DNA of 64,000 nt from an uncultured bacterium (GTDB taxonomy: Bacteria > Patescibacteriota > Minisyncoccia > Phycocordibacterales > PALSA-1337), in contig CAWKEA010000005.1 in assembly GCA_963848635.1 (NCBI GenBank), forward strand, positions 15,275 to 79,274, in the 5' to 3' direction. A model generated the notes under the pieces. The model had not been told where the DNA came from and searched no databases. It saw nothing but the letters and a program-made list of their open reading frames with translations. Each line of letters opens with the position of its first letter. Within the stretch, counting starts at the first letter, position 1. Below are positions 3,501-38,313 of the stretch, in pieces. Position numbers and translations under genes: made by a program.

Positions 3501-3527
3501 GTTTTTTGGCGTGGTATCATTAAAATC

Positions 3528-4079
3528 ATGAAAATAGAAGTCGAAACTAGGTTTTTGGATATAGACAAAGCTGCTTTGATCTCGAAATTAAAGGCTTTGA
3601 AAGCAGTCGACTATGGCGAGGTCAAGCTCGACGAGGTCATATTTTATGACAAGGATCTCAAATGGCTAGAAGAGCACAGGCTTGTAAAGCTCAGAAAAAA
3701 AGGCGACAAAATCAGCCTGACATACAAGCAGAACAAGAGCCAGCAAGTCGACAGTACGAAAGAGATCGAATTCAACGTCTCGAGCATGGAGGAAGCAGCA
3801 GTTTTCTTAAAGGAGCTGGGGTTAGTCGCCTACAGGACGATCGAAAAGCGCAGGCATTCTTTCACGCTCGACGATGTGACCTTGGACATAGATACTTGGC
3901 CAAAGATCCCGACCTATGTAGAGCTGGAAGGAGGCTCGGTCGATGAATTGAAGTCTGTCGCCGGCAAGCTCGGATTTGTATGGGAAAACAGATTCGACAA
4001 AGATCCGCGGTACGTATTCAAAAAATACGGCTATGACTTCGACAAGATAAAGACGGTCACTTTCGATAGATTCGAATAA
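3528..4079 (+). CDS. CYTH-domain protein (triphosphate tunnel metalloenzyme / class IV adenylate cyclase-like)
   Basis: N-terminal MKIEVETRF gives the ExExK signature of CYTH/CyaB-type enzymes. About 180 aa, typical for the family. Confidence 0.55.
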   Translation: MKIEVETRFLDIDKAALISKLKALKAVDYGEVKLDEVIFYDKDLKWLEEHRLVKLRKKGDKISLTYKQNKSQQVDSTKEIEFNVSSMEEAAVFLKELGLVAYRTIEKRRHSFTLDDVTLDIDTWPKIPTYVELEGGSVDELKSVAGKLGFVWENRFDKDPRYVFKKYGYDFDKIKTVTFDRFE

Positions 4080-9853: not shown

Positions 9854-9863
9854 GATATCGGGC

Positions 9864-10994: not shown

Positions 10995-10999
10995 CAGCA

Positions 11000-15904: not shown

Positions 15905-15911
15905 AGTTTTT

Positions 15912-16919
15912 TTATAGTTCTTTCGGTCTATAATCAACCGGTGCTTTCTTTAGCCAATCTTCCAGCTCTTGGCGAGATAGAAGGCCTTCTTGGGCGCCGA
16001 TATATTGCACGACCGAAGCAGAATTAATGGGAGCCCAGGCAAGAGCCTCGAGCGACGTTTTTCCGAGAGCGAGCGCGGCGACGAAAGTTGAAGAAAATGC
16101 GTCTCCCGCACCAGTGCGCTCATAAGGCGGTTTCGGATCGGGGTAGAGCGGCATGAGATATAACTTGCCCTGGTCGAAAAGATATGCACCATTTGGTCCA
16201 TCGGTGAGAAGCACTATTTTGGGACCGAGAGCCGCAAGCCGCTCGCACAGGTTTTTTATGTCACGACTGCCTTCTGACGCGCCGAGTATCCTCTGTGCCT
16301 CCTCGACATTCACTGCAAAGACCTCCGTACGCGCATAGATCCTTTTTAATTTTTCTATGCCAAGCTCCATCTGAAACGTTCCGGGCTGAAAAGCGAGCTT
16401 GACATCGCTATTTCTTTCAAGATACTTCGCGATTTCGTCATGAAAGGGTGCAGAGGATACCCCCATCGATGACAGATAGAGCCATTTCGGCGCGGAAAAT
16501 TTCGGCAGAGAATAATCGAAATCTTCATGTTTGACAAGGATCGTCCGTTCGGCTCCATACCAAAGGACGTAATGGTAGTTGGTTTTTTTGCCTTTTTGCT
16601 CGGCTATAAAATCCGTCGAGACTTCGTTCGATCGAAGGGTGCGCTCGCATTCCTTGCCGCGTTCGTCTTTGCCGACGTTCGTCACAAGCGCCGCCGGAAG
16701 CCCGAGCCGAGCCGCCGCCACAGCGGCATTTGCCGCGTTGCCGACGCCTGCGATGACTGTATCGAATTCAAATGGGATCTTGTCGCCGAATTTCATGCAT
16801 ATCTCGCAGTCCTTGTCGTCAAGCCTGCAATTGACGTGAGCATCTTTTAATTTGACGAACGCGTCGATGACGACATCGCCTATAGCGATAAAATCGCTTT
16901 TTTTCTTGAAAATAGACAT
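15912..16919 (-). CDS. PfkB-family carbohydrate/nucleoside kinase
   Basis: N-terminal GDVVID and a C-terminal GAGDAF anion-hole motif typical of ribokinase-like kinases. Confidence 0.8.
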   Translation of the reverse strand: MSIFKKKSDFIAIGDVVIDAFVKLKDAHVNCRLDDKDCEICMKFGDKIPFEFDTVIAGVGNAANAAVAAARLGLPAALVTNVGKDERGKECERTLRSNEVSTDFIAEQKGKKTNYHYVLWYGAERTILVKHEDFDYSLPKFSAPKWLYLSSMGVSSAPFHDEIAKYLERNSDVKLAFQPGTFQMELGIEKLKRIYARTEVFAVNVEEAQRILGASEGSRDIKNLCERLAALGPKIVLLTDGPNGAYLFDQGKLYLMPLYPDPKPPYERTGAGDAFSSTFVAALALGKTSLEALAWAPINSASVVQYIGAQEGLLSRQELEDWLKKAPVDYRPKEL

Positions 16920-22314: not shown

Positions 22315-22926
22315 TTACTTGCGATCTTTGTCTTCAGGCCTGTGCACGTTATCAACCCGAGTAAGTATGAGATCGTTCAGAGTCTCAACGCCTCGGAGGA
22401 AGCTCCTCAGGGAGCAGGCGTACTTGAATACACCAAGCTTATCTCCCTTAAGTAACCTCTGTTTGATCTCTTCCAGGCAACCCTGGGCAAATTCAAACCC
22501 TTCTCCGTCTCTGACCTTGAACTCAACGAGCTTGCAAAGTGCCAGATCAATATTTTCAATGATTTCACCTTTGAACTGTTCATTGAACTGACTGTTCTCG
22601 TTGATTGCTTGCTCTGCGAGGTTCCCCGCACGATCCGCAACATTTGAAGCGGCCATCCGGAAGTTACTGACTCCATCTTCGCTACCGTAGCAATCCCAGG
22701 CACGAAGCATGTTTCTGACCGCGAAGCACTTCTCGTAGGATTGGAGGAAGGCGATTTTCTCGATATCTTCCACTCCTTGCGGAACAATCTTATGACTGTC
22801 TGCAAGAATGGCGCGGACTACCCATTCACCACCAAGCTTATTGACCAATGCTTCAATCTGACCGAGGTTTAATTTACCGTATTTCATCTGTTTCCTTTCC
22901 TCGACGGTTGTCGAGAAACTTCTCAC
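22315..22926 (-). CDS. hypothetical protein
   Basis: A 203-aa ORF with no recognisable motif, located in the tRNA-proximal region. Confidence 0.35.
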   Translation of the reverse strand: MRSFSTTVEERKQMKYGKLNLGQIEALVNKLGGEWVVRAILADSHKIVPQGVEDIEKIAFLQSYEKCFAVRNMLRAWDCYGSEDGVSNFRMAASNVADRAGNLAEQAINENSQFNEQFKGEIIENIDLALCKLVEFKVRDGEGFEFAQGCLEEIKQRLLKGDKLGVFKYACSLRSFLRGVETLNDLILTRVDNVHRPEDKDRK

Positions 22927-23413
22927 TGCCCGTGAGTCGAGGGGGTTGCTTTCGCAACATCATTGCTAGATGACTTGGCCAAAGGTTTCGTCATAGCAGA
23001 GAATGGCCTAAAAATAAGCCGCTTTCTGCTATGACGAATGCAAGTAATTTCAATGTTCTATCCTAGTGTAAGTATAGCACCTTCTACACTATTTATCAAT
23101 ACTTTAACGATTTCGTCAAATATGTGTCTTAGTATGGCTCTATTAAGCCACCCTGTTAACCACAGTAGTCCTTCGCCCCCGCTCGACTATCTCTGAAGGT
23201 TAGGTGACTCATGGTCGCGGGCACTAGAAGTAGTGGATGTTCACTTCCTTCTCACGGAACCATATTCCGCCTGACGACGAGCAAAAGCGTAAAGTAATCG
23301 AAAAGTTACTTTGGAACCTTTCGATCAAAAATCAAACCGTTGCTCAACACAGTTTCAAAAGCCCTTATTCCATTCTCGCTAAATCACCCAAAACAGGCGA
23401 TAATTTAACAATG

Positions 23414-23495
23414 TGCCGGGGAGAGGACTTGAACCTCCATGGATTACTCCGCTTGCTCCTAAAGCAAGTGCGTCTGCCAATTTCGCCACCCCGGC
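23414..23495 (-). tRNA. tRNA-Leu(TAG)
   Basis: Manually folded. Acceptor GCCGGGG/CCCCGGC, anticodon loop TTTAGGA, long variable arm, T-loop TTCAAGT. No encoded CCA. Confidence 0.8.
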
Positions 23496-23854
23496 GATAG
23501 TGATTCAAAAGCATCATCAACATGAGCAGGCATGCCTTCACATTATCATGTTTTACGAAGCCTTCCAATTGTTTGACCTTCAATCGACATTTTAATCTTA
23601 TTTAATAGATACATCTCTGCTATGTTCTGAAATAACAGATCCACTTGTATATATCCACAAGGTCTTGCCGGAAATTTAACTATATGTTAGAATATTTTCA
23701 GAGCACATTCGTCTTGGTTCTTCGATGCGAGCTTGAGTGCGACCCGACGCAGAACCGATGCGAGCTCTAGAACCCGATGACCAGACCGGGAGCCCCCTTT
23801 TCGAAAGATTGGGGGGTTTTTATATGCAAAAATTATCAACTCCGAGGCCTTTTG

Positions 23855-23927
23855 TGCGCCCAGTAGGGATCGAACCTACGACCTTATCCTTAAGAGGGAT
23901 CTGCTCTACCAGCTGAGCTATGGGCGC
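23855..23927 (-). tRNA. tRNA-Lys(CTT)
   Basis: Acceptor GCGCCCA/TGGGCGC, D-loop AGCTGGTA, anticodon loop CTCTTAA, T-arm GTAGG-TTCGATC-CCTAC. Confidence 0.8.
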
Positions 23928-24271
23928 GTTATCGTGATTACACCTCCATATTTTAGTATGGTTATGTTGAAAACTACTCAACGATCATGTTTCGGAAGCA
24001 ATCTAAAATTTAGCAGATTTTCAGGGGTTGTGCAATGTTTATTCCGGCTAGCGAGGAACGTGTGGACGAGTATTCTCGTACACAACGTCCGACAATTTAG
24101 TAAAATCCCTACTGGGTCGACGACGGATCAAACGAGTAAATACTCCGCAACTTGCTGCGCTAAGTAGCGAAGCTTCCATTTAATATCTCGTCAGCTTGTT
24201 GCGAGGCAGTTTATTCAAGTACAATTTTTATAAATAATAGGTTATAATCTTAGAATGACACTATCATTTAA

Positions 24272-27200
24272 ATGAAAACGATCGACCCTATTCTTGGTTT
24301 TGACAGAATTAATCTTATCGGAACTAAAAAAGCACGGTGGAGTACGATCGCACTATTCACGTTCATGTTTTTGGTGGGAGGTTTTCTTTTTGATATCAAT
24401 GGGGCCCAAGCGGCCACGAGTATATATTATTCAGTTGGTTCCAGCAATACTACCGATTACAAGACTGGCTCTCCCACAATTTCCATCGATGGAAGTGGCA
24501 ATGCAACATTTTCAGTCGCCCAGACAAATAATTCGATGGGTGTCGGCGATGTTATCAATTATAACGGCCAACAAGCCTATGTCACAGCCAAGACATCGAC
24601 CTCTATTTGGACAGTCGAAACTGCCATTGGCGCTTTGCCTCCGGCAACATCACCCGTACCTGTAACATCGATTACGCATGTTTTTAGTACTCTCAAAAGC
24701 GCACTGGGCGATGGGATTGCAGGCAATGTCACATCATCAAATTTCCTCAATACCTCCGACCTCGTAGCTAACAACTATGTCCTTAACGTTTCGCTTTATA
24801 ATGACACAGGAACACCAGAGACTGGAGATGGTAATATGACAATTGGAGGTTTTACGACGAGCGCCATCAACCATATATACATATACACTCCAACATCGAC
24901 AACCACCCAAGTGAACGCTAGCCAGCGACATAAAGGTGTATTTAATACTGCGATTGGCTATGCGCTTCAGGTCCCGGTCAATGCATATATTCTGACTATC
25001 ACCAATCCATATGTGACGATCGATGGCGTTCAAATAAATAATACCAACGGTCGCGGGTCGCTTTCATTGAACAACAATACTACTCTATCCAATGACATCA
25101 TTTTGGGTTCTGGGGATTATACACTCATATATGCCAGAGTGAATGACGTCGTGATGTATAATAATGTGATACAAGGCCCCAATACTATCGCCATTGATGC
25201 GGAGACAGCAGGTCAAACTGACTGGATATACAACAACACTTTTTATAACGTAGGCACAGCTATAGCGCTCAGCAATTGCAGTTTTGGTACGCAAATCAAA
25301 TTGATAAACAATATTTTTGCGTCAACAACTGCTCCCATGTCAGGTGCAGGCACCTGTGCGGCAGCGGGTTCAGATTATAACTCTACCGACGCAAGCTCAT
25401 TGGATTATTCTGTGACAGGAGGAGGCAATGTTCATGACCGCGTCAATCAGACATTTAATTTTTATGATCTTGCGAATAGCGATTTCGATCTGACGATATC
25501 AGATACAGGCGCCCTTGACCTCGGTACATCATCGCCATCGAATGATCCGGTGGTTCCATTTTCAACAGATATCTTAGGCACCAATCGTCCACAAGGGCCT
25601 GCATGGGATATCGGCGCGTTCGAGTACTTGCCATCGACATATGCAACCACTCCACCAGGTCTTTCCGGCGGTTCACCGGGTGGACAAATAGCCTACGGCA
25701 CAGCATCCCTTACTGTTTCCGTTAACACTAATGAGAATGCCACTTGCAAGTATGATGTTGTGGCTGGCACAGCGTACGCGTCTATGCCATACACATTCAC
25801 CAGTACCGGCGGAACGACTCACAGTTCAGCAATTTCTGGTCTACAAAATGGTCACGTATACAACTATTATGTCCGATGCCAAGACGCTTCTGGCAACACT
25901 AACATCAATGATTATGTGATTTCGTTCGAAGTGAATCAGGGCGTCGACGGTATCGTCTATGCTACGAGCTGTTCAAAGGAGGATACTAACTATGCCATGT
26001 CATTCGTCAATGCCGGCGACACGCTCAAGATCCCTGCGGGTGTTTGCGGCGGATACTCGTCATCCTTTGGTTTGGGGATATACAAAGCCATAACAGTTCA
26101 AGGAGCTGGAGAAGGGCAAACCATCATTGAAATAGCCTCGACTACGTCTGGAACATATTTTAATGGTGCCATCATACCTATTTATGCAGCTGCTACTGTC
26201 AGAGATTTGACCATCGAGACTGATACTTCTGGAAATAGCGGAACAGCCTTTACCGTAAATGCCAGCGGTTTTCGTATCACCAATGTCCAATATATTGACC
26301 AGACTCCCGCAGACACTGGTTATTTCGTCGGAGTCAGATCGGGCGTATATGGTCTTATCGATCACGATAGCGTAACTGGTGGAGCGGGTAACGATGAGCT
26401 TATTGTCGTCTACGGCCCTACAGACTCTTGGCAGACGCCGAATACCATGGGTAAATCTGAAGCACTTTATATCGAGGACTCTACGTTCAACAATAGCGGA
26501 TATGTTACTGATTGCAACTCAAATAGCCGATGTGTGGTTCGCCATAATGTCATCACTGGGCCTATAAAAGTAGACGGTCACGGCAAGGCAAGCGATACGC
26601 CTCCACGTGGCGTGAGACAATACGAGACATATGACAATACATGGACAAGCAGTGCGACCGCGTGGGCCGCAATAGAGATGCGAGGCGGTACGGGTATTAT
26701 ATTTGGTAATAAAGTGACGAATCAATCGCCTGGTGCAAATGCAGGATGGTTCTTTCTCACTGATTATGCGTACGGCGCGGCATGGCCAAACTTTGGTAGC
26801 GTATATCAATGTCTTAATAATTATCCCGTAGATGATCAGATCGGTGTCGGCGAAGACGCCAAGGTAGCCGCTAGCGAGCCATACTATATCTGGGGCAATA
26901 CTTTTGGTGGTTCTGCCTGGACGAGATCATTCAAGGCGATTCCTCCCACAAGTGTCAGCGGTTGTTCGGTGACGTTCACTGAAAGTCAAGTTATACAGTC
27001 TAACCGTGATTTTTACGCTGATGCAGGTTTTGATACGAATACTGGTTTGACCAGCGGTCCATTCTCATCTATTCCTTCGACGTGTACGATAGGATTTGGT
27101 TACTGGGCTACCGATCGAGGAGGGGACTGGGATGCATCTATTGGGACATCGAGCGCATCGAACGATGGCAGTCTGTATAAATGCACATCTACTAATACAT

Positions 27201-29425
27201 GGACTGATTCATATACGCCCTATGCATATCCGGATTACCTTACTGCTACTTCGACCACAGGAACTGGCCTTGTCGATATAGGAGCAGGGGCAAGAATGTT
27301 CGGCAATGGCATGTTTTATGGCCTCGCGACGTCGTCTGCATCAGGCGTATTTGCGAATATAGCAGTTTTACCAGCCATCAGCACTCCAGATGTCTGGGTT
27401 GATCTGTCGATATCGGCTTGGAATAAAACCGGTACAAGAGAAAAAACATGGACAGAAAGCTCTTGGAGCATGGGAACTACATCATCAAACCACACAATCG
27501 GGGATCTTGCCAGTAATACTGCGTACAAGATCACAATAGATGGCATGATTGCTTCAACCACCACAGCCGGTCCTGATTGCATTTCAGGCATCTGTACCTC
27601 GGATTCCTCTGGAAAGATATATTTCAACTATTCGGGAGGATATTCAACGCATACATTTGACGTATCGCCTTATGTTAACGGATCAATCACACTGTCCACA
27701 CTCCTTACCCCCGCTTTCTCTAGTATCACCGTTACAAGCGTCACAGCCTCAAGCACTATCACTGCAGGTGGCGGAGCTTCATCGACTGTAGAAGGTTTTA
27801 ACTACGGGACTACAAGCGCATATGGCCTAACTGCTTCCACAACAGGCACTTTCGGCATCGGTAATTTCACTCAAAATATAACAGGATTAGCGTGTAATAC
27901 TCCATATCATGTCCAGGCATTTTCCATTAATTCTGCGGGGGTTGGCATCTCATCTGATGCGACGTTCACTACGAGCGCGTGTGCAGTCACTTATACTCTT
28001 TCGTACACAGCAGGCAGTAATGGAACGCTCTCAGGCTCATCGACTCAGGTCGTACCGGGAAACGCAAACGGTACAGCTGTTACTGCACTACCGAACTCAG
28101 GATACTACTTTGTTAATTGGTCAGATGGTTCAACAACAAATCCTCGCAGTGATAGCAACGTCATTGCCAATGTGGCAGTCACGGCCAATTTTTCCTTGAT
28201 AGCGACCGTTCCGGTTCTTTCAACCCTCGCCGCGAGCGGCGTTTCCGCATCGAACGCCACTCTGAACGCGCATATTCTATCGACAGGCGGAGCTAACGCA
28301 ACGCAGTCTGGATTCGCATATGGCACAGTATCAGATCTTTCAACAGTAATCGCTACGACAACCCTAGGAGCTCAAATAGGTCCCGCAACCTTCAACCAAA
28401 CCTTTACCGACCTCACTCCTAACCTCACCTATTATTTCCGCGCATACGCAGTGAACTCTGCGGGAACGACGATGGGCTCAATCCTTTCCTTTATCACAAA
28501 CAACAATTCAGTATATGCCGACGTGGGAGGCACTGTCACCGGCCTTGCAGGCACTCTCGTGCTCCAAGACAACTCTACTGACAATCTTTCGCTTACTTCG
28601 AATGGATCGTTTAGCTTTGCCACTCCTCTTGTCAATAATTCCTCGTATAGCGCCACTGTTCTCACTCAACCATCTGGACAAACATGCTCCGTATCAAACG
28701 GATCCGGAACAGTCTCGGGGATCGCTGTGACAGGGATCACTGTTGTCTGTGCAGATAATCAGGTTACTAATCCAATTGTATATTCAAATGGCGGTGGCGG
28801 TGGGGGTGGCGGTGGCGGCGGAAGCGTCTCTCCAACAGTCCTTTTGCCGATTCTTGCTACAAGTTCCACCGCAAAGACATATATCGATTCGTTTATCACT
28901 CCGACTTATGCCGGTGCAATAGGGAATAATGTCCGATCCCTCCAGAAATTCCTTATCGCACAGGGATTGCTTGATCCTTTTGACGTAACAGGATTCTTCG
29001 GGCCATTGACCAAGGCCGCCGTTATCAAGTTCCAGATTAAAAATAGAATTATCGCTTCCGCTTTAAGTCCCGGCGCTGGGGCAGTGGGACCGAGGACTAT
29101 TGCGGCGATCAATTCGCTCATTTCGAGCACTGCTCTTGTTGCAACGACGACACCGCCTCAAGCCAGCGTTTCTTCCATAAGATTAATATTCAACGCAAAT
29201 CTGTCCTTGGGTTCAATCGGAGCAGAAGTTAAAGCACTCCAGGAATACCTCAATGCTAAAGGCTACAATGTCGCTTATACAGGGGTTGGTTCGCCAGGAA
29301 AGGAAACTACCGAGTTTGGATATGCGACACGAGCAGCGCTCATCAGATTCCAGAATGCGCACGGAATTTCTGCCTCAGGAGATTTTGGACCGATAACAAG
29401 AGCGTATATAAAAAATTTCGGATAA
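24272..29425 (+). CDS. giant cell-surface protein (1717 aa): N-terminal TM/signal, right-handed beta-helix-like region, Fn3/Ig-like repeats, poly-Gly linker, two C-terminal peptidoglycan-binding repeats
   Basis: N-terminal hydrophobic segment; NxxN/NN-rich beta-helix-like repeats (NNTFYNVGTAIALSNC, IINNIFAS); several 90-100 aa T/S-rich Ig-like modules; an 11-residue Gly run at about 28790-28825; two PG_binding_1-like repeats at the C-terminus (..LQKFLIAQGLL....GFFGPLTKAAVIKFQ and ..LQEYLNAKGY....FGYATRAALIRFQ). Confidence 0.8.
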   Translation: MKTIDPILGFDRINLIGTKKARWSTIALFTFMFLVGGFLFDINGAQAATSIYYSVGSSNTTDYKTGSPTISIDGSGNATFSVAQTNNSMGVGDVINYNGQQAYVTAKTSTSIWTVETAIGALPPATSPVPVTSITHVFSTLKSALGDGIAGNVTSSNFLNTSDLVANNYVLNVSLYNDTGTPETGDGNMTIGGFTTSAINHIYIYTPTSTTTQVNASQRHKGVFNTAIGYALQVPVNAYILTITNPYVTIDGVQINNTNGRGSLSLNNNTTLSNDIILGSGDYTLIYARVNDVVMYNNVIQGPNTIAIDAETAGQTDWIYNNTFYNVGTAIALSNCSFGTQIKLINNIFASTTAPMSGAGTCAAAGSDYNSTDASSLDYSVTGGGNVHDRVNQTFNFYDLANSDFDLTISDTGALDLGTSSPSNDPVVPFSTDILGTNRPQGPAWDIGAFEYLPSTYATTPPGLSGGSPGGQIAYGTASLTVSVNTNENATCKYDVVAGTAYASMPYTFTSTGGTTHSSAISGLQNGHVYNYYVRCQDASGNTNINDYVISFEVNQGVDGIVYATSCSKEDTNYAMSFVNAGDTLKIPAGVCGGYSSSFGLGIYKAITVQGAGEGQTIIEIASTTSGTYFNGAIIPIYAAATVRDLTIETDTSGNSGTAFTVNASGFRITNVQYIDQTPADTGYFVGVRSGVYGLIDHDSVTGGAGNDELIVVYGPTDSWQTPNTMGKSEALYIEDSTFNNSGYVTDCNSNSRCVVRHNVITGPIKVDGHGKASDTPPRGVRQYETYDNTWTSSATAWAAIEMRGGTGIIFGNKVTNQSPGANAGWFFLTDYAYGAAWPNFGSVYQCLNNYPVDDQIGVGEDAKVAASEPYYIWGNTFGGSAWTRSFKAIPPTSVSGCSVTFTESQVIQSNRDFYADAGFDTNTGLTSGPFSSIPSTCTIGFGYWATDRGGDWDASIGTSSASNDGSLYKCTSTNTWTDSYTPYAYPDYLTATSTTGTGLVDIGAGARMFGNGMFYGLATSSASGVFANIAVLPAISTPDVWVDLSISAWNKTGTREKTWTESSWSMGTTSSNHTIGDLASNTAYKITIDGMIASTTTAGPDCISGICTSDSSGKIYFNYSGGYSTHTFDVSPYVNGSITLSTLLTPAFSSITVTSVTASSTITAGGGASSTVEGFNYGTTSAYGLTASTTGTFGIGNFTQNITGLACNTPYHVQAFSINSAGVGISSDATFTTSACAVTYTLSYTAGSNGTLSGSSTQVVPGNANGTAVTALPNSGYYFVNWSDGSTTNPRSDSNVIANVAVTANFSLIATVPVLSTLAASGVSASNATLNAHILSTGGANATQSGFAYGTVSDLSTVIATTTLGAQIGPATFNQTFTDLTPNLTYYFRAYAVNSAGTTMGSILSFITNNNSVYADVGGTVTGLAGTLVLQDNSTDNLSLTSNGSFSFATPLVNNSSYSATVLTQPSGQTCSVSNGSGTVSGIAVTGITVVCADNQVTNPIVYSNGGGGGGGGGGGSVSPTVLLPILATSSTAKTYIDSFITPTYAGAIGNNVRSLQKFLIAQGLLDPFDVTGFFGPLTKAAVIKFQIKNRIIASALSPGAGAVGPRTIAAINSLISSTALVATTTPPQASVSSIRLIFNANLSLGSIGAEVKALQEYLNAKGYNVAYTGVGSPGKETTEFGYATRAALIRFQNAHGISASGDFGPITRAYIKNFG

Positions 29426-29608
29426 AAAATATTAGCATCTGTCTCCATATCTAAAGGAGGACCAACAGTCGCTACTACAGATTCGCTCTCGACAGCGAGA
29501 AGCATGAACTTGCGACAATGATGTGAACTGGTCTTTAGAGACCAAAAAGATAGCAAGACATAACCCAAATAAGGGTTTTGATGCTCTTTTTTGGGGTCCA
29601 TTTCAATG

Positions 29609-29692
29609 TGCCCGGGGTGGGAATCGAACCCACAACTCCTTACGGAGATAACATTTTAAGTGTTACGTGTCTACCAGTTTCACCACCCGGGC
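29609..29692 (-). tRNA. tRNA-Leu(TAA)
   Basis: Acceptor GCCCGGG/CCCGGGC, anticodon loop CTTAAAA, long variable arm, T-loop TTCGATT. Confidence 0.8.
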
Positions 29693-30011
29693 GCTTGTTT
29701 TTATTTTTACCACGATGTGTCGGCTTCAAGCTATGACAATGAGGACACAAAATCCTAAGATTTTCGATGCGATTGTCGTGTCTATCTCCATGTACATGGT
29801 CAAGTTCAAGTGGAATTCTACCATCTTGAGACTTTTTTGCCCAACCGCATTCTTCGCACATAGGCAATTTTATCTTTTCAATGAACAAACGCTTCTTGAG
29901 CTTGAAGCTTTGGAAATCGTTGTTTTCTATAAGAATGTTTGATAAGGGGACCTTCGTCATATATCGACCACGCAAACCCTTATTCCAAGCATATCCAGTA
30001 AAATGCGACAT
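29640..30011 (-). CDS. HNH endonuclease
   Basis: HNH motif LELDHVHGDRHDNRIENLRILCPHCH. The last 17 codons and the stop overlap the 5' half of tRNA-Leu(TAA). The start is trimmed to an internal Met so that it does not overlap tRNA-Cys. Confidence 0.55.
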   Translation of the reverse strand: MSHFTGYAWNKGLRGRYMTKVPLSNILIENNDFQSFKLKKRLFIEKIKLPMCEECGWAKKSQDGRIPLELDHVHGDRHDNRIENLRILCPHCHSLKPTHRGKNKNKRPGGETGRHVTLKMLSP

Positions 30012-30035
30012 ATCAGGATTGTATTCAGTATTAAA

Positions 30036-30109
30036 TGGAGGCCACGGCGAGAATCGAACTCGCGATAACGCTTTTGCAGAGCGTCGAATTACCACTTTTC
30101 TACGTGGCC
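30036..30109 (-). tRNA. tRNA-Cys(GCA), CCA encoded
   Basis: Acceptor GGCCACG/CGTGGCC, discriminator U73 (characteristic of tRNA-Cys), anticodon loop CTGCAAA, T-loop TTCGATT, 3' CCA present. Confidence 0.8.
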
Positions 30110-30204
30110 ATATCTATTCTATAAAGCCCTTACTGCCTAAAGTCTACAAGATCGACTCGCTGTATCATAGCATTATACTTTAAAAAATTTAAGGACTTTC
30201 GACC

Positions 30205-30534
30205 TTACTGACTTGAATGGCTTATCTCATCGATCCTCTGACGGTTCTTTTCGCCGATATCGATGGCAAAAGAGAAGCGCGGCGCGCGGCGCATCTTGAC
30301 TTTTTTCATGAAATAGAGGCGCAGGTCGCTGGCCTTGCGCTGTACGAATTCGAGGGCGTCGTCTTCCTTTTCAGTCGGGAGAACCGAGATGAGGATGCGC
30401 GCATTGGCCTCGGTGTCGGACAGCTGGACGCCGGTGACCGTGATGAGCGAATCGTGGTTCGCTTCGCGCACGAGGTATTCCGCCGCTATCTCGCGGATGT
30501 ATTCGGCCAGTCGGTTGTGCTTTTGGATGTTCAT
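30205..30534 (-). CDS. rbfA: ribosome-binding factor A
   Basis: RbfA-like sequence of about 110 aa, in the conserved position immediately downstream of infB. Confidence 0.8.
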   Translation of the reverse strand: MNIQKHNRLAEYIREIAAEYLVREANHDSLITVTGVQLSDTEANARILISVLPTEKEDDALEFVQRKASDLRLYFMKKVKMRRAPRFSFAIDIGEKNRQRIDEISHSSQ

Positions 30535-30561
30535 GTAGATAGATTTAAGATTCAACTATTT

Positions 30562-32208
30562 TTACTTCTTCTCCACTATATGGAACGTCTCGAGACGATC
30601 GCCGACAGCAAGCGAGACTTTGATGTCCGATAAAAGCGCGCCGAATTCGTAGCCCTCGCGCACTTCGTCGGCCTTGATCTTGTTCTGTTGTAGCTCGCGG
30701 ATGCGTCCACGGCCGATCTCGCCGCCGCGGCGCAGGACTTTGACGTCGCCGCCTTTTTTCATCGAACCCGACTCGACTTTGCCGCCGACGATCTGCTTTT
30801 CCTTTCCTGTGCCGAAGATGGCAAGCACTTTCGCTTCGCCCAACTTTTCATCGATATACTCCTTTGGCTTGCGTTCGACGGCGACCGAGCGCACGAAATC
30901 TGTCAATTCATAGATGACCTTGAATATGCGCGCATTCAGGCCTGACCTCTCGATGACGCCAGCGGCTTGGACATCGATCGGAACATTGAAGCCGACGATG
31001 ATAGAATCTCCGTCGCTCATGGCCGTCTTCGCATCTTTCTCATTTATGTCGCCGATGCCTTCATCGATGATCCGTATCTCCACATGATCGAATACGATCT
31101 TTTGGAGCTCATGATGGATACCATCGAGGGAGCCTGACGAATCGGCGCGTACGATGAGCGGGATGACGACAGTTTTGATCTCTTCGATAGGCTGATCAGT
31201 AGAGGCAAGCGCAAGAGAAGCGTTTTTACCAGCGGCATTTTTTTCAACATTCGAGCCTCGAAATGCATTTTCCGTGACCTTCGGCTTTCGGTCATTATTT
31301 CCCTCGATATATCGTTCTGCCTCCTTTTTTGTGCTGAATGAGGTGAAGGAAGATCCAACGATCGGAAGATCGCTCCAACCGACGACGCGCGCCGGACGCC
31401 CTGGACCTATCTCGGCCTCTTGGACGCCTTTGAAATTCTCAAGTATCCGCACTGGCGCAAATGCCGTTTCCGTCGCGATGAAAGAGCCTTTTTTCAGGGA
31501 GCCGTTCTCAATGATGAGCGTGGCGGCTATGCCTTTCTTCTTGTCGAGGTCTGCTTCGATGACCAAGCCGGCAACTGGAGCATTCGGGTCGTATGAGAGG
31601 TCTTCCATATCGGAGAGCAGATATATCATGTCAAGGAGGTCGGGGATGCCCGTTCCATGAGTAGCAGAGATCTCGGCCACGGGCACATCGCCGCCATAGC
31701 CTTCGACGTAGATCTCATTTTCGGCAAGAGTCTGTCTCGTCTTCTCGACATTCGCGCCCGGTTTATCGATCTTGTTTATGGCGACCACATACGGAAGTTT
31801 GGCGTATTTTATGCAGTTGAGTGCTTCGACCGTCTGCGGTTTGACGCCGTCTTCAGCCGAGACGATAAGGATCGCTATATCAGCCGCATTGGCGCCGCGC
31901 TCGCGGATGCCGCAAAAAGCCTCATGCCCAGGCGTATCGATGAACGTGATGCGACGCTCGCCGTCTTTGTGCGACATGACGGCTTCATATGCGCCGATCG
32001 ATTGAGTGATGCCGCCCGCTTCGCCCGCGACGATATTGGTCTTTCTGATATAGTCGAGAAGAGTGGATTTGCCGTGATCGATATGACCCATGACGACGAC
32101 GACCGGCTGACGCCGCGATCTCAAGGCTGTGGCGGCCAAAGGTTTCGCCGTCGTGCCTTTCAATGGCGTCTTTTCTTGAGCATTCTTCTGAGGGGCATTA
32201 TTTTGCAT
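30562..32208 (-). CDS. infB: translation initiation factor IF-2 (short N-terminus)
   Basis: G domain with GHIDHGKSTLLD, DTPGHEAF and NKID, followed by IF-2 domains. Only about 45 aa precede the G domain. Confidence 0.9.
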   Translation of the reverse strand: MQNNAPQKNAQEKTPLKGTTAKPLAATALRSRRQPVVVVMGHIDHGKSTLLDYIRKTNIVAGEAGGITQSIGAYEAVMSHKDGERRITFIDTPGHEAFCGIRERGANAADIAILIVSAEDGVKPQTVEALNCIKYAKLPYVVAINKIDKPGANVEKTRQTLAENEIYVEGYGGDVPVAEISATHGTGIPDLLDMIYLLSDMEDLSYDPNAPVAGLVIEADLDKKKGIAATLIIENGSLKKGSFIATETAFAPVRILENFKGVQEAEIGPGRPARVVGWSDLPIVGSSFTSFSTKKEAERYIEGNNDRKPKVTENAFRGSNVEKNAAGKNASLALASTDQPIEEIKTVVIPLIVRADSSGSLDGIHHELQKIVFDHVEIRIIDEGIGDINEKDAKTAMSDGDSIIVGFNVPIDVQAAGVIERSGLNARIFKVIYELTDFVRSVAVERKPKEYIDEKLGEAKVLAIFGTGKEKQIVGGKVESGSMKKGGDVKVLRRGGEIGRGRIRELQQNKIKADEVREGYEFGALLSDIKVSLAVGDRLETFHIVEKK

Positions 32209-32331
32209 CGTATTTTGAGAGGGAAGTTCGAAATTAGAGTCTAGCAGAAAAAGACTGGTTTGACAAATAAAATATGAAATGGTAATAGGAGGAGCATGGC
32301 GGTTTCTCCTTCTCCTTCTCTTTTTACTTTT

Positions 32332-32808
32332 TTACTTCAGCTTTTCTTTCGCTTTTTCGATCGCCTCTTTTTCTTCTCCTGACAATTCATATTCTGAAGC
32401 ATGGCTCCTGAGCGGCTTGCCAAAGACACTGACGCTGTCGCGCGAATAGAGGCTTGATATGACGACGCCATCGCCTGATTCATTTATAAAAGCCGTGGCA
32501 AAGCTCTGGTTGCCTCCGCCGCCAGCGGCACGGAACGGGTTAAAGCGAACGGTATGGACGGCTTGGACGCTTTTTTTCAGACGATGCTCAACGCTGACCA
32601 GGTATTCTTCGAGGTTGGAGCGGAATCTTTCGAGCGTCTCAGCTCGGCTCGCCAGACTGACTATGGAATCGCCGATCGATGTGGCATTTTTGTCCGCCAA
32701 AAACTTTTTGAGCTTCATGTCAAGATAGACTATATATCCCGTCAGGGCGAGTATGATCACCGAAAGGACGATGAGCGAAATGGTAGTCGTATCGAATGAA
32801 ATGTTCAT
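32332..32808 (-). CDS. hypothetical membrane-anchored protein (DUF4446-like)
   Basis: A single N-terminal TM helix, a coiled-coil region and a Gly run. It resembles a family commonly found downstream of infB in Gram-positive and CPR genomes; this is a tentative call. Confidence 0.35.
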   Translation of the reverse strand: MNISFDTTTISLIVLSVIILALTGYIVYLDMKLKKFLADKNATSIGDSIVSLASRAETLERFRSNLEEYLVSVEHRLKKSVQAVHTVRFNPFRAAGGGGNQSFATAFINESGDGVVISSLYSRDSVSVFGKPLRSHASEYELSGEEKEAIEKAKEKLK

Positions 32809-32979
32809 GTGGTCGATTATAGCATGTCGGAACTTATAAAAATTCAAAGATGTGAATAATGATGCAAGAAAAAACCGCGCAGTTACCCGCGCGGCCTTGA
32901 TTTTTGTGGAAGAGATTACCCGAGTTTTTTAATTTATGTCAAGTATTTTTACGTGGCCGAAAAGAGTATATTTAGGGCC

Positions 32980-34152
32980 ATGAAGGCCATATATCTCGAC
33001 TATGCATCTATAACCCCGCTCGATCCTCTTGTTTTGAGAGAAGTAAACAAGTGGAGCAAGGAGCCCTTGAACCCTTCTTCTATCCATTCGCTCGGCGTCA
33101 AGGCAAAGAGCGCGCTCGATCGCGCGCGGAAAACCACAGCGGAATTTTTGAATGCGCATGATGATGAGATCGTTTTCACATCTGGCGGCACAGAAGCGAA
33201 CGCTCTTGCTCTTCTAGGCACCGCTCGTGCGGCGCATCGAAACGGCTTTGCAAAGCCGCATTTGATAATCTCCGAGATAGAGCATTCTTCTATCATCGAA
33301 ACAACTGACATGCTCGAAAGACATGGCGTCCTAGTTACAAGGCTGTCAGTCGATACGAACGGCCTTATCTCGCTTGAAGAATTGAAGAAAGCCATAAAGC
33401 CCGAAACGTTTCTTGTTTCGATCATGGCCGCTAACAATGAGATCGGAACCATCCAGCCGATCCGTGAGATCGCAAAGGCGATACGGGACTATAGAAAAAA
33501 GGCTTTTGACGCTCCTGGAGCGGACCAGGATAGCACTGCAAAGTATCCGCTTTTTCACACAGACGCATGCCAGGCGATCCTTTATGGAGAGCTCAATGTC
33601 GAAAAGCTTGGCATTGATCTCTTGACTCTCGATGCGAGCAAAGCATGCGGGCCACGCGGCGCTGGAGCGCTGTATATAAAGAGGGGAACGCTGATAGAAC
33701 CTCTCATCTATGGCGGCGGCCAAGAAAGGGGACTGCGCTCCGGCACAGAAAATATCCCAGGCATTATGGGCTTTGCAAAATCTCTCGAGATTGCTAGAAA
33801 AAATATGAAAAAGGAAAGCGAAAGAATAGAAGAGCTCCGACAATCTTTTGAAAGGGAAGTCAAGAAAATCCGACCGGATGCGGCCGTAAACGCCGCCGAT
33901 GCGCCTCGCGTGCCGCATATCTCGAATATCTCGTTTCCCGGCGTCGATGCCGAGATGCTCGTCTTGCGCCTCGACGCGAAAAGCATCGCCGTCTCGACGA
34001 AATCCGCTTGCTTGCGCGATGAGGACGAATCGTATGTCCTGTGCGCTATTGGCGTTGATTCGAAATCATCCATACGTTTTTCTTTCGGCAAATGGACGAA
34101 AAAAGGTGATGTAACAAGGGCATTAAGCATCCTGAAAAAATTCCTTATGTAG
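32980..34152 (+). CDS. cysteine desulfurase / class V aminotransferase (IscS/NifS-like)
   Basis: SGGTEANALAL, HTDACQA, a PLP-lysine context LDASKACGPRGAGALY, and a C-terminal catalytic Cys (SACL). Confidence 0.8.
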   Translation: MKAIYLDYASITPLDPLVLREVNKWSKEPLNPSSIHSLGVKAKSALDRARKTTAEFLNAHDDEIVFTSGGTEANALALLGTARAAHRNGFAKPHLIISEIEHSSIIETTDMLERHGVLVTRLSVDTNGLISLEELKKAIKPETFLVSIMAANNEIGTIQPIREIAKAIRDYRKKAFDAPGADQDSTAKYPLFHTDACQAILYGELNVEKLGIDLLTLDASKACGPRGAGALYIKRGTLIEPLIYGGGQERGLRSGTENIPGIMGFAKSLEIARKNMKKESERIEELRQSFEREVKKIRPDAAVNAADAPRVPHISNISFPGVDAEMLVLRLDAKSIAVSTKSACLRDEDESYVLCAIGVDSKSSIRFSFGKWTKKGDVTRALSILKKFLM

Positions 34153-34272
34153 ATCGGTCCATATACAATGGTCGCATTTACGGGAGAACGTAGCATGAAG
34201 CATGCATCGACGATAAAGTAAAAGCCGCTGGTGTTAGGAGCGGCTGACCGTGCGCATGCTTTGTGACAACTG

Positions 34273-34659
34273 CTAAGCAAAACAAGGAACGCCCGTGTCG
34301 CAAGCGTTTTTCTTTTTCAAGGGCAATGCGGATATCGACAGACGAAATCCCTCGAAAGTCTCGTGTCTTTCAAAAATGCCGCACTCCGCCAGACAGTCGA
34401 ACCATTCCTCGACCTTTCCCTGGAACAGAACGAGAGCCCCCTCACTCGGCTCACCAGGGATGCCGGTATCTTGGTATCTGTCGAGAAGATTGATTTTCTC
34501 GATCAGCCATGCTTTGATCCGATCTTTCAGCTCCAGGGAAACATTCCCTGAACACAATATTTCCGGCATTTCTTCGGTGAACCACTTTGGCAAAGAATCA
34601 TTTCCCACGATATGCCAGAATCCTTCGACGTCTGACGTGGATATGATGATATCGTTCAT
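34273..34659 (-). CDS. hypothetical protein
   Basis: A 128-aa acidic ORF with no recognisable family. Confidence 0.3.
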   Translation of the reverse strand: MNDIIISTSDVEGFWHIVGNDSLPKWFTEEMPEILCSGNVSLELKDRIKAWLIEKINLLDRYQDTGIPGEPSEGALVLFQGKVEEWFDCLAECGIFERHETFEGFRLSISALPLKKKNACDTGVPCFA

Positions 34660-35085
34660 TTTTCTCCTCTATGGTTTATGGTTATGGCCTTTATCTATTC
34701 GATAGGATATTCCTTCCAAGCCTGATGTCAATGTTTAAAAGGGGATAAGCAGAATATGCATGCGTGCCTTACAAAAGGCGTCAAGATAACATCTTGACAT
34801 GGGACGATGCGAGAAAAAAGCGAGGCGCTTACGGCGTCTCGCTTGTTGGGTGCCTGATAACTTTATATCATACAGTTATTGTAATGTCAATATTGCACTC
34901 ATTCAAAAGTATGATAAAATCCAACCAACTTCGCAGATTGAGTTCTGCCTGACAGCGAAGGATTAGAAAAAGACTTCGGTGTCAACTACCCTCCAATAAT
35001 TCAGAGTTCAGCCGTTTTCGTTTGCGAAAGCGTTTTTTACGTTATGCATCGTATTCATTTATTTATTATCTAATTTTAATATCAA

Positions 35086-38313
<3,228 letters not shown>

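What the first reader, a model, noticed from the sequence alone, without database searches (positions are those of the whole stretch)
24272..29425. 5.15-kb giant surface protein with beta-helix, Ig-like repeats, an 11-residue glycine run and tandem C-terminal peptidoglycan-binding domains, flanked by tRNA clusters
A single 1717-aa ORF sits between tRNA-Leu(TAG)/tRNA-Lys(CTT) upstream and tRNA-Leu(TAA)/HNH/tRNA-Cys downstream. Its architecture suggests an envelope-anchored fibre or adhesin attached through peptidoglycan-binding repeats rather than LPXTG or an S-layer anchor. The domains in order are an N-terminal TM segment, an N-rich right-handed beta-helix-like region, several T/S-rich Ig/Fn3-like modules, a Gly11 hinge and a PG_binding_1 x2 tail. 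tRNA-flanked placement plus roughly 1.3 kb of non-coding DNA upstream (22930-24270) is typical of an accessory or hypervariable locus.
Basis: partly seen in the sequence, partly recalled or inferred. Interest (0 to 1): 0.5.

Follow-up and report, generated by a model that had tools for sequence, protein, structure and literature searches.

The report
Wall-tethered two-beta-helix surface protein, CPR bacterium
This is a real 1717-residue secreted protein of an ultrasmall Paceibacteria (CPR) bacterium, with two beta-helix heads, a stalk of Ig-like domains, a glycine hinge and a peptidoglycan-binding tail; it is an accessory gene dropped into the middle of a conserved four-tRNA array, and it belongs to a kind of CPR surface protein that has already been described.

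Summary
The features confirmed are:
- ORF 24272-29425 (1717 aa)
- an 11-glycine run
- two C-terminal PG_binding_1 domains
- the four tRNAs
- the HNH gene

- The N-terminal hydrophobic segment looks like a cleavable Sec signal peptide (AQA|A).
- There are two right-handed beta-helix modules, not one.
  - Module 1 (aa 48-455) occurs as 3-7 tandem copies in giant CPR proteins.
  - Module 2 (aa 558-990) belongs to a large family with no Pfam, NCBIfam or PHROG model. The family has 2574 50%-identity clusters at E<=1e-30. It has invariant Glu/Asp/His/Arg residues and a pectate-lyase-like fold, which suggests an enzyme.

**The tRNAs**
The two "flanking tRNA clusters" are one ancestral array: infB, tRNA-Cys, Leu(taa), Lys(ctt), Leu(tag). 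This order is kept in 33 of 45 related genomes. There the Leu(taa)-Lys(ctt) gap is 52-1718 bp; in the window it is 5680 bp.

**Evidence that the gene is accessory**
- None of the 80 related infB loci carries the gene at that position.
- Its five closest relatives sit in four different genomic contexts, one of them a mobile element.
- Its GC3 is 0.43, against 0.55-0.71 for core genes in the window.

**Verdict**
It is most likely a wall-tethered protein that binds or degrades glycans. It is a new member of a known kind, and interest is modest.

The parts
24272..29425 (+). Complete ORF, 1717 aa: a secreted multidomain protein with a peptidoglycan-binding tail
   Evidence: The identical protein and DNA occur in an independent assembly. 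Closest full-length relatives are 44-50% identical Paceibacterota proteins that NCBI names 'peptidoglycan-binding domain-containing protein'.
24272..24412 (+). aa 1-47: probable Sec signal peptide, with a basic n-region (KKAR), hydrophobic aa 24-42 and AQA|A
   Evidence: It is the only hydrophobic segment in the protein. Relatives show the same hydrophobic stretch followed by small residues directly before 'A(T/S)xIYYSVG'. No signal-peptide predictor was available, so cleavage is inferred.
24413..25636 (+). aa 48-455: beta-helix module 1, an N-terminal beta-sandwich plus a right-handed beta-helix that ends in the choice-of-anchor-Q motif WDIGAFEY
   Evidence: AF2 pLDDT 88.9. Foldseek finds Rhombotarget A and PL6 alginate lyase with TM 0.36-0.38. 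NF041518 scores 25.8-27.7 bits against a cutoff of 25. The module occurs as 3-7 tandem copies in giant Moranbacteria/Parcubacteria proteins at 30-40% identity.
25646..25936 (+). aa 459-555: Fn3/Ig-like spacer domain
   Evidence: Pfam hits are below threshold (Arylsulfotran_N, Pur_ac_phosph_N). The domain is 45-54% identical to repeated domains of P0039, P0075 and P0079, which carry fn3/PF16656 annotations.
25943..27241 (+). aa 558-990: beta-helix module 2, an enzyme-like member of a large unannotated family. Invariant residues are E709, W720, G727, E735, D747, R757, H770, R782, E785, R804, N813, P852, Q856, G858, P870 and Y981
27242..27691 (+). aa 991-1140: S/T-rich region with no assigned family
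   Evidence: It is shared only with P0001-P0004, and Pfam gives only a faint Fn3-like hit. No structure was predicted for it.
27698..27985 (+). aa 1143-1238: Fn3-like domain
   Evidence: It is 35% identical to aa 1311-1412 (E 1.5e-16) and matches fn3-annotated repeats in P0015, P0043 and P0057.
27992..28201 (+). aa 1241-1310: Flg_new_2 (divergent InlB B-repeat) domain
   Evidence: Pfam PF18998, 44 bits against a cutoff of 23.6.
28202..28498 (+). aa 1311-1409: Fn3 domain
   Evidence: Pfam fn3, 28.1 bits against a cutoff of 25.
28523..28771 (+). aa 1418-1500: probable Ig-like domain
   Evidence: It is 41-61% identical to tandemly repeated units in P0016, P0034, P0050 and P0069 and matches phrog_24736 of unknown function. 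There is no Pfam hit.
28790..28822 (+). Gly11 hinge (aa 1507-1517), encoded by mixed GGN codons
   Evidence: Relatives have G10 (P0002), G5 (P0084), G4 (P0003), SGGGSSSG (P0032) or nothing (P0001, P0004) at the same place.
28907..29086 (+). aa ~1546-1605: first PG_binding_1 domain
   Evidence: Pfam PF01471 gives two stretches. The SleB N-terminal match covers aa 1546-1596. The domain is 37% identical to the second copy.
29219..29404 (+). aa 1650-1711: second PG_binding_1 domain
   Evidence: It also matches PDB 1lbu (muramoyl-pentapeptide carboxypeptidase) at E 0.0027.
23413..23495 (-). tRNA-Leu(tag), the last member of the conserved array
23854..23927 (-). tRNA-Lys(ctt), the third member of the array, now 5680 bp from tRNA-Leu(taa)
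29608..29692 (-). tRNA-Leu(taa), the second member of the array
29640..30095 (-). HNH endonuclease ORF in the Cys/Leu(taa) gap. As listed, the ORF overlaps both tRNAs, so the real start is probably the internal Met (MSHFTG...)
   Evidence: Pfam HNH, 26.5 bits. Sequence. Homologues lie directly 5' of tRNA-Leu(taa) in 7 related loci.
30036..30109 (-). tRNA-Cys(gca), the first member of the array, next to infB
30562..32208 (-). infB (548 aa), the conserved anchor gene upstream of the tRNA array

Best explanation
The gene encodes an exported, non-covalently wall-tethered surface protein of a Paceibacteria (CPR/Patescibacteria) cell.

**Proposed mechanism**
1. A Sec signal peptide is probably cleaved after AQA47.
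2. The C-terminal pair of PG_binding_1 domains holds the protein on the cell's own peptidoglycan. The window carries murG, ftsW and an M23 peptidase, so the cell makes a wall.
3. The Gly11 hinge and a chain of about six beta-sandwich domains (Fn3, InlB-B-repeat and Ig-like) form a flexible stalk.
4. The stalk holds two right-handed beta-helix modules away from the wall.
   - Module 2 is the likely working part. It would be a polysaccharide-binding and probably polysaccharide-cleaving domain (lyase- or hydrolase-like) that acts on a partner cell's or the environment's glycan.
   - Module 1 is a CPR-specific beta-helix that other CPR proteins string in tandem. It probably adds binding surface or reach.

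**Origin**
The gene is accessory. It was inserted, on the opposite strand, between tRNA-Leu(taa) and tRNA-Lys(ctt) of a four-tRNA array that lies compactly next to infB across related genomes.

**Shown:** the domain content, the folds, the conservation pattern, the split array, the lack of synteny and the atypical composition.
**Inferred:** export, cleavage, binding to the cell's own wall, catalysis and the target.
For: **Domains and folds**
- PG_binding_1 x2, Flg_new_2 and fn3; choice-of-anchor Q.
- Both large modules are modelled with high confidence as right-handed beta-helices. Their structural neighbours are polysaccharide lyases, epimerases, hydrolases and tailspikes.

**Module 2 looks catalytic**
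- 16 columns are invariant across 98 sequences from several phyla. They include E709, E735, D747, R757, H770, R782, E785 and R804.
- E735, R757, R782 and R804 are spaced 22-25 residues apart, which is one helix rung. This fits a conserved charged groove, although that reading is an inference from spacing and the DSSP string.
- Family members are mostly stand-alone secreted proteins of 420-500 aa.

**Anchoring**
- The hydrophobic segment is N-terminal only, and there is no LPXTG motif.
- Peptidoglycan synthesis genes are in the window.
- A Gly or Gly/Ser hinge before the PG-binding tail recurs in relatives.

**Accessory status**
- The array order is conserved in 33 of 45 loci. The Leu(taa)-Lys(ctt) gap is 52-1718 bp there and 5680 bp here.
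- No homologue lies near infB in any of the 80 loci.
- Relatives sit in four unrelated contexts, one inside a mobile element.
- GC3 is 0.43 against 0.55-0.71.

**Literature**
Highly expressed extracellular proteins with PG-binding and Ig-like domains have been reported in Paceibacteria and proposed to mediate host attachment (PMC10936435).
Against: - No catalytic mechanism or substrate can be assigned. Identity to every solved beta-helix enzyme is 11-15%.
- No CAZy-type Pfam model matches.
- Gene neighbourhoods of stand-alone family members were uninformative, apart from one with uxaA- and uxaB-like neighbours.
- PG_binding_1 domains in other proteins usually direct wall hydrolases to their substrate, so the tail could bind a foreign wall rather than the cell's own.
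- Signal-peptide cleavage was not predicted with a dedicated tool.
- There are no expression data for this gene.
- No integrase or att-like repeats flank the insertion, so how it was acquired is unknown.
Confidence: 0.55

Rival explanations
1. The protein is a purely adhesive fibre. Both beta-helix modules are non-catalytic binding surfaces, as in the S. pneumoniae adhesin PfbA, and the protein only attaches the CPR cell to a host or a surface.
Against: Module 2 is 40-55% identical across distant phyla and has invariant Glu, Asp, His and Arg residues. That degree of conservation is unusual for adhesins, which diverge fast, and is typical of active sites. Most family members are short, stand-alone secreted proteins with no stalk or anchor.
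Confidence: 0.2
2. The PG_binding_1 tail targets a foreign wall, either a host or prey bacterium or free muropeptides, rather than the producer's own. Either the N-terminal segment stays uncleaved as a membrane anchor and the protein bridges the two cells, or the whole protein is released as a diffusible enzyme.
For: PG_binding_1 commonly serves as the substrate-targeting module of wall-acting enzymes; the matches here are to SleB and to muramoyl-pentapeptide carboxypeptidase. The hydrophobic core is 18-19 residues long, enough for a signal anchor. Paceibacteria are thought to be episymbionts or parasites (PMC10936435).
Against: An AQA motif lies exactly at the start of module 1 and is conserved in relatives. 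The layout of functional head at the N-terminus, then stalk, hinge and wall-binding tail at the C-terminus is the usual one for proteins tethered to the producer's own wall. The producer has its own peptidoglycan.
Confidence: 0.12
3. It is a housekeeping autolysin or wall-remodelling enzyme that acts on the cell's own envelope polymers.
For: It has a PG_binding_1 tail, and one relative pair lies beside a type IV pilus cluster, where wall remodelling might be needed.
Against: It has no known peptidoglycan-hydrolase domain. It is absent from most related genomes, is not syntenic and has atypical composition, none of which is expected of a housekeeping function.
Confidence: 0.05
4. It is a remnant of a phage or mobile element: a tailspike-like depolymerase left at a tRNA integration site.
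For: Tailspikes and capsule depolymerases are among the fold neighbours. The gene sits among tRNAs. Relative P0018 lies in an element with a relaxase-like gene, a TrwB-like ATPase, a primase and a serine recombinase.
Against: The two beta-helix modules have no PHROG match. There are no phage or integrase genes and no att repeats at the locus. A Sec signal peptide, a PG-binding tail and an Fn3 stalk are cellular surface-protein features, not virion features.
Confidence: 0.03

Closest known systems
Extracellular proteins with PG-binding and Ig-like domains in Ca. Paceibacteria (Kuroda et al., mBio 2024, PMC10936435), and NCBI's 'peptidoglycan-binding domain-containing protein' of Ca. Paceibacterota (P0001, P0004)
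   Same: They come from the same lineage. They are secreted, carry a PG_binding_1 tail and have Ig/Fn3-like spacers. P0001-P0004 share module 1, Fn3, module 2 and the stalk at 44-50% identity.
   Different: This protein has two PG_binding_1 copies and a Gly11 hinge, where P0001 and P0004 have one copy and no Gly run. It also lies in a different genomic position. Nobody has tested the function of any of these proteins.
Giant multi-module beta-helix proteins of Moranbacteria/Parcubacteria (P0005-P0040, 1200-3000 aa)
   Same: Module 1 (aa 48-455) is the same repeat unit at 30-40% identity, including the terminal WDIGA(D/F)E choice-of-anchor-Q motif.
   Different: Those proteins hold 3-7 tandem copies, often with Laminin_G_3 domains, and mostly lack module 2 and the PG-binding tail. 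This protein has a single copy.
Pectate-lyase-like right-handed beta-helix enzymes (PL6 alginate lyase and chondroitinase B, AlgE mannuronan C5-epimerases, GH28 polygalacturonases, GH87, phage tailspike depolymerases)
   Different: Identity is 11-15%. No family-specific Pfam model matches. Catalytic motifs cannot be aligned with the tools available. Module 2 belongs to its own large family, which no library describes.
PfbA, the LPXTG-anchored beta-helix adhesin of Streptococcus pneumoniae (PDB 3zpp, 4mr0)
   Different: PfbA is attached covalently by sortase through LPXTG. This protein has no LPXTG and uses PG_binding_1 domains. Identity is 12-13%.
Homing endonucleases inside tRNA gene clusters (phage T4 SegB, PMC2330249), and homing endonucleases and introns in CPR rRNA and tRNA genes (PMC11270868, PMC13011429)
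   Same: The array that holds the gene also holds a free-standing HNH gene. In relatives the array gaps carry LAGLIDADG and HNH genes.
   Different: Nothing shows that an endonuclease moved the giant gene. The link rests on position alone.

Membership tests
PG_binding_1 (Pfam PF01471) | Sequence match above Pfam's gathering score | tested here: met
   75.2 bits against 23, in two stretches; 82.4 bits on the isolated tail.
PG_binding_1 (Pfam PF01471) | Binds peptidoglycan | not testable with these tools
   This needs a sacculus pull-down with aa 1540-1717.
Right-handed parallel beta-helix (pectate-lyase-like superfamily) | Three-stranded rungs wound into a right-handed helix, with structural similarity to known members | tested here: met
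Right-handed parallel beta-helix (pectate-lyase-like superfamily) | Pfam Beta_helix (PF13229) match | tested here: not met
   This protein has no hit. Some homologues do: P0102 scores 28.4 bits, and several module-1 proteins hit.
CAZy polysaccharide lyase or glycoside hydrolase families with a beta-helix fold (PL6, PL1/3/9, GH28, GH87) | Significant sequence similarity to family members or family-specific models | tested here: not met
   No Pfam or NCBIfam hit. The only PDB sequence hits are to the N-terminal cap of AlgE epimerases. Structural alignments show 11-15% identity.
CAZy polysaccharide lyase or glycoside hydrolase families with a beta-helix fold (PL6, PL1/3/9, GH28, GH87) | Catalytic residues in place (a Brønsted base and acid, or catalytic carboxylates) | tested here: inconclusive
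   Invariant E709, E735, D747, H770, R757, R782 and R804 exist, but they could not be superposed on known active sites.
Choice-of-anchor Q domain (NCBIfam NF041518) | Match above the curated cutoff | tested here: met
   25.8 bits on the whole protein and 27.7 bits on module 1, against a cutoff of 25, at aa 419-452. The margin is small.
Fn3 and InlB B-repeat spacer domains | Pfam matches above the gathering score | tested here: met
   Flg_new_2 scores 44 against 23.6 and fn3 scores 28.1 against 25. The other beta-sandwich units fall below threshold and are supported only by homology to annotated repeats.
Sortase (LPXTG) substrates | LPXTG motif followed by a C-terminal hydrophobic segment and a basic tail | tested here: not met
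   The only LPxxG string is LPNSG at aa 1273, inside a domain. There is no C-terminal hydrophobic segment.
SLH-anchored S-layer proteins | SLH domains | tested here: not met
   Pfam finds no SLH match at E<=1.
Sec signal peptide (SPase I type) | n-, h- and c-regions with small residues at positions -3 and -1 | tested here: inconclusive
   By inspection: KKAR, hydrophobic aa 24-42, then AQA|A, with the same pattern in relatives. No dedicated predictor was available.
tRNA-associated genomic island or insertion | Present at a tRNA site here and absent from the same site in relatives | tested here: met
   The array is conserved in 33 of 45 loci with a gap of 52-1718 bp, against 5680 bp here. No homologue lies near infB in 80 loci.
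tRNA-associated genomic island or insertion | Atypical base composition | tested here: met
   GC3 is 0.427, and 0.41-0.44 in every module, against 0.55-0.71 in the window's core genes.
tRNA-associated genomic island or insertion | Integrase gene and flanking direct repeats (att sites) | tested here: not met
   There are no repeats of 14 nt or more bracketing the gene and no integrase in 22900-30300. The nearest rve integrase is at 2161-3237.

The most novel reading that the evidence does not exclude
Module 2 (aa 558-990) defines a new and widespread family of polysaccharide-active enzymes. The family holds thousands of clusters across Acidobacteriota, Verrucomicrobiota, Proteobacteria and CPR, and no Pfam, NCBIfam or CAZy-type model covers it. 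CPR bacteria have mounted it on a wall-tethered stalk to cut a partner cell's surface glycan. In addition, the tRNA array next to infB is a lineage-wide landing pad, populated by homing endonucleases, through which such host-interaction genes are exchanged.
Probability: 0.3. Interest if true: 0.55.

Novelty: new member of a known kind. Interest (0 to 1): 0.3.

Why it matters
CPR/Patescibacteria live attached to other cells, and apart from type IV pili the molecules that mediate this contact are poorly known. This protein is a clear, complete example of the large wall-tethered surface proteins thought to be involved.

It also points to two things that can be tested:
- A very large beta-helix family with enzyme-like conservation and no annotation. 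It is a candidate new carbohydrate-active enzyme family.
- A conserved tRNA array beside infB that collects varied cargo across Paceibacteria: homing endonucleases, a toxin, wall-related proteins and, here, a 5-kb surface protein. It could serve as a marker locus for tracking accessory-gene turnover in these genomes.

None of this overturns current views.

Tried and rejected
- **Metagenome scan with the whole protein.** It returned only domain-level hits to the Flg_new_2 and PG_binding regions. No closer full-length relatives or strain variants were found.
- **Synteny search through infB.** The nearest genomes have infB only 43-56% identical. The timing of the insertion therefore cannot be narrowed, and 'hypervariable' could not be tested.
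- **Poly-Gly length variation.** Only two assemblies carry the gene and they are identical. Reads could not be inspected.
- **Gene neighbourhoods of stand-alone module-2 homologues.** No consistent polysaccharide-utilisation context emerged. One Verrucomicrobial locus has uxaA- and uxaB-like neighbours, which is too thin to name a substrate.
- **Family libraries.** PHROGs gave nothing for either beta-helix. NCBIfam gave nothing for module 2.
- **Flanking DNA.** There are no att-like direct repeats or inverted repeats bracketing the gene. Rfam at a relaxed threshold on 22900-24300 found only the two tRNAs. tblastx of the flanks against 130 loci matched only tRNAs.
- **Promoter and terminator scan.** The counts did not exceed shuffled expectation.
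- **Motif literature search.** Searching for the family's C-terminal motif YPHPL found nothing relevant.
- **Readings considered and rejected.** An S-layer protein (no SLH domain, low GC3, accessory), a sortase substrate (no LPXTG) and a prophage tailspike (no phage genes or PHROG hits).
Full report
**1. Observation**

The window holds an ATG-initiated ORF at 24272..29425 on the plus strand, coding for 1717 residues.
- The glycine run is real: 11 Gly at aa 1507-1517 (nt 28790-28822). It is written with mixed codons, so it is only an imperfect 6-nt repeat.
- ARAGORN and Rfam both find four tRNAs, all on the minus strand: Leu(tag) 23413-23495, Lys(ctt) 23854-23927, Leu(taa) 29608-29692 and Cys(gca) 30036-30109.
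- An HNH ORF lies between the last two.
- The same 10,704 bases (window 24252-34955) were assembled independently from run ERR10755936 at 100% identity. The ORF is therefore not an assembly artefact.

**2. The organism**

The neighbours are cellular core genes: a LexA-like S24 peptidase, an HhH-GPD glycosylase, a short infB, rpoB/rpoC, cysS, gltX, dnaK/dnaJ, murG, ftsW and type IV pilus genes. The best protein and infB matches come from Candidatus Paceibacterota/Parcubacteria, including Nomurabacteria, Taylorbacteria and Zambryskibacteria. The nearest infB is only 56% identical, so no close genome is available in the species collection. The presence of murG, ftsW and an M23 peptidase shows that the cell makes peptidoglycan.

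**3. Architecture**

| Residues | Feature | Evidence |
|---|---|---|
| aa 1-47 | Basic stretch, the protein's only hydrophobic segment (aa 24-42), then AQA\|A | |
| aa 48-455 | Beta-helix module 1 | |
| aa 459-555 | Fn3/Ig-like domain | |
| aa 558-990 | Beta-helix module 2 | |
| aa 991-1140 | S/T-rich region, unassigned | |
| aa 1143-1238 and 1311-1409 | Two Fn3 units, 35% identical to each other | |
| aa 1241-1310 | Flg_new_2 domain, 44 bits | |
| aa 1418-1500 | Probable Ig-like unit | |
| aa 1507-1517 | Gly11 | |
| aa ~1546-1605 and 1650-1711 | Two PG_binding_1 domains, 37% identical; 75-82 bits against a cutoff of 23 | |

There is no LPXTG signal, no C-terminal hydrophobic segment and no SLH domain.

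*The N-terminus.* In relatives, and in tandem copies of module 1, the module starts with 'A(T/S)xIYYSVG' right after such small residues. A cleaved Sec signal peptide is therefore more likely than a membrane anchor. This is an inference, because no predictor was available.

*Module 1.*
- AlphaFold2, given 38 aligned modules, produces a confident model (pLDDT 88.9): a small beta-sandwich followed by a right-handed beta-helix.
- Its structural neighbours are Rhombotarget A and PL6 lyases, at fold level only.
- It ends in the choice-of-anchor-Q motif, just above the NCBIfam cutoff.
- The same module occurs 3-7 times in tandem in giant Moranbacteria/Parcubacteria proteins of 1200-3000 aa, at 30-40% identity.

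- It is 40-55% identical to hundreds of mostly stand-alone proteins of 420-500 aa from Acidobacteriota, Verrucomicrobiota, Gammaproteobacteria, MYXO-CTERM proteins and CPR.
- A full HMMER scan of 1.84 billion cluster representatives finds 2574 at E<=1e-30.
- No Pfam, NCBIfam or PHROG model covers it.
- The model is very confident: pLDDT 93.6, pTM 0.93.
- Sixteen alignment columns are invariant in 98 sequences. They include E709, E735, D747, R757, H770, R782, E785 and R804.
- Several of these residues are one helix rung (22-25 residues) apart. I read this as a conserved charged groove. That reading comes from spacing and the secondary-structure string, not from coordinates.

**4. Genomic setting**

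This is the most informative result. I fetched 80 loci around infB from related genomes and scanned them for tRNAs.
- In 45 loci all four tRNAs are present.
- In 33 of those 45 they follow infB in the order Cys(gca), Leu(taa), Lys(ctt), Leu(tag) on one strand. This is exactly the order and relative strand seen in the window.
- In those 33 loci the array spans 405-2835 bp (median 1186), and the Leu(taa)-Lys(ctt) gap is 52-1718 bp (median 328).
- In the window the array spans 6697 bp and the gap is 5680 bp, filled by the giant gene on the opposite strand.

The two 'flanking tRNA clusters' are therefore one ancestral array split by an insertion. The loci with the most similar infB that reach tRNA-Lys (L009, L010, L013) have gaps of 58-70 bp.

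Further evidence that the gene is accessory:
- None of the 80 loci has a homologue of the gene near infB.
- The closest full-length relatives lie elsewhere. P0001 and P0004 lie between ligA and gatC beside a type IV pilus cluster. P0003 lies between a pseudouridine synthase and a thioredoxin-reductase-like gene. P0018 lies inside an element with a Replic_Relax protein, a TrwB-like ATPase, an OLD nuclease, a primase-like gene and a serine recombinase.
- The gene's GC3 is 0.427, uniform over all modules, against 0.55-0.71 in the window's core genes.
- No integrase or att-like repeats flank it, so the route of insertion is unknown.

The gaps of the same array in relatives hold varied cargo:
- LAGLIDADG and HNH endonucleases
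- a PemK toxin
- 3D-domain proteins
- HTH proteins
- an Lnb_N protein
- by sequence inspection only, an ABC ATPase and a P-type ATPase

The array is therefore a recurrent insertion site.

**5. Mechanism**

The best reading is a secreted protein held on the producer's own wall by its PG_binding_1 pair. A glycine hinge and a stalk of about six beta-sandwich domains present two beta-helix heads. Module 2 is the probable working part, binding and probably cleaving a polysaccharide. Module 1 adds a CPR-type binding surface.

| Status | Items |
|---|---|
| Shown | domains, folds, conservation pattern, insertion, composition |
| Inferred | export, cleavage, binding to the cell's own wall, catalysis, target |

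Rivals:
- A non-catalytic adhesin. The PfbA similarity supports it. The strong cross-phylum conservation and invariant charged residues argue against it.
- A tail that targets a foreign wall, with the protein either bridging two cells or released.
- An autolysin. This is unlikely: there is no hydrolase domain and the gene is accessory.
- A phage depolymerase remnant. This is unlikely: there are no phage genes or PHROG hits, and the layout is that of a cellular surface protein.

**6. Comparison with what is known**

NCBI already names the nearest relatives 'peptidoglycan-binding domain-containing protein'. Kuroda et al. (mBio 2024, PMC10936435) reported highly expressed extracellular proteins with PG-binding and Ig-like domains in Paceibacteria and proposed host attachment. 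The protein is therefore a new member of a known kind.

It works like Gram-positive wall-associated enzymes and adhesins. It is not a sortase substrate, not an SLH protein and not a member of any defined CAZy-type family (membership tests).

The Gly hinge recurs with variable length in relatives: G10, G5, G4, a Gly/Ser stretch, or none. This fits a linker under loose constraint. No length variation could be seen for this gene itself.

**7. Verdict**

Interest is modest (0.3). The parts worth following up are the large unannotated enzyme-like beta-helix family and the tRNA array next to infB as an insertion hotspot.

Noticed in passing
window 35086-38313 (junction near 37860-37900): rpoB is broken by a frameshift. 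ORF 35086-37833 ends early, and the canonical sequence (…[38 protein letters not shown]…) continues in another frame into ORF 37936-38313, which carries the end of Rpb2_6 and all of Rpb2_7. This is either an indel error in the assembly or a genuine frameshift in an essential gene.
   Followed up: partly
window 29640-30095 (-); L024, L012, L039, L060, L044, L031, L032: A free-standing HNH endonuclease gene sits directly 5' of tRNA-Leu(taa), and its 3' end runs into the tRNA. Homologues (42-85% identical) occupy the same spot in 7 of 80 related loci. In L012 and L031 the HNH gene and the tRNA are inverted together. The sporadic distribution looks like a homing endonuclease tied to this tRNA. The window's copy appears to be truncated at the N-terminus.
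   Followed up: partly
L007-L086, between tRNA-Cys(gca) and tRNA-Leu(tag) downstream of infB: The gaps of the conserved four-tRNA array carry different cargo in different Paceibacteria: LAGLIDADG endonucleases (L062, L015, L019), a PemK/MazF toxin (L035, L018), 3D-domain proteins (L046, L052, L084), HTH proteins, an Lnb_N protein, an ABC ATPase, a FemAB-like protein and a P-type ATPase. The array behaves as a lineage-wide insertion hotspot.
   Followed up: partly
L005 (Logan ERR10755936 contig) = window 24252-34955: The independent short-read contig is 100% identical but stops 20 nt upstream of the giant gene's ATG. The break could reflect a repeat, a coverage drop or population variants at the upstream edge of the insertion.
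   Followed up: no
L136 (contig of P0018), 1-24440: A 1479-aa relative (module 1 + Fn3 + PG_binding_1) lies inside what looks like an integrated mobile element: a DNA methyltransferase, an OLD-family nuclease, a TrwB/DUF87 ATPase, Replic_Relax, a DnaG-type zinc-ribbon protein and a serine recombinase.
   Followed up: no
window 2161-3237 (-), within 2001-4000: An rve-family integrase/transposase gene lies in a stretch of low G+C (0.427, against about 0.49 for the window). It is probably an insertion sequence.
   Followed up: no
window 8723-12334 and 15053-15937: Type IV pilus genes (a T2SSE ATPase and a T2SSF platform protein), an LVIVD-repeat protein, and a pilin with an N-methylation motif fused to a Laminin_G_3 lectin-like domain (GC3 0.47, also low). 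In two relatives the homologue of the giant gene lies right beside the type IV pilus cluster.
   Followed up: no
window 23793-23821 (+): A G+C-rich hairpin (CCCCC, a 13-nt loop, GGGGGG) followed by TTTTT lies between tRNA-Leu(tag) and tRNA-Lys(ctt), on the strand opposite to the tRNAs. It looks like a terminator, but no gene lies upstream of it. The pattern scan missed it because of the long loop.
   Followed up: no
L087 9605-12734: In a Verrucomicrobial genome (Nibricoccus sp.) the stand-alone module-2 homologue P0178 lies next to altronate-dehydratase-like (GD_AH) and mannitol-dehydrogenase-family (UxaB-like) genes. These belong to hexuronate catabolism, a faint hint of a uronic-acid polysaccharide substrate.
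   Followed up: no
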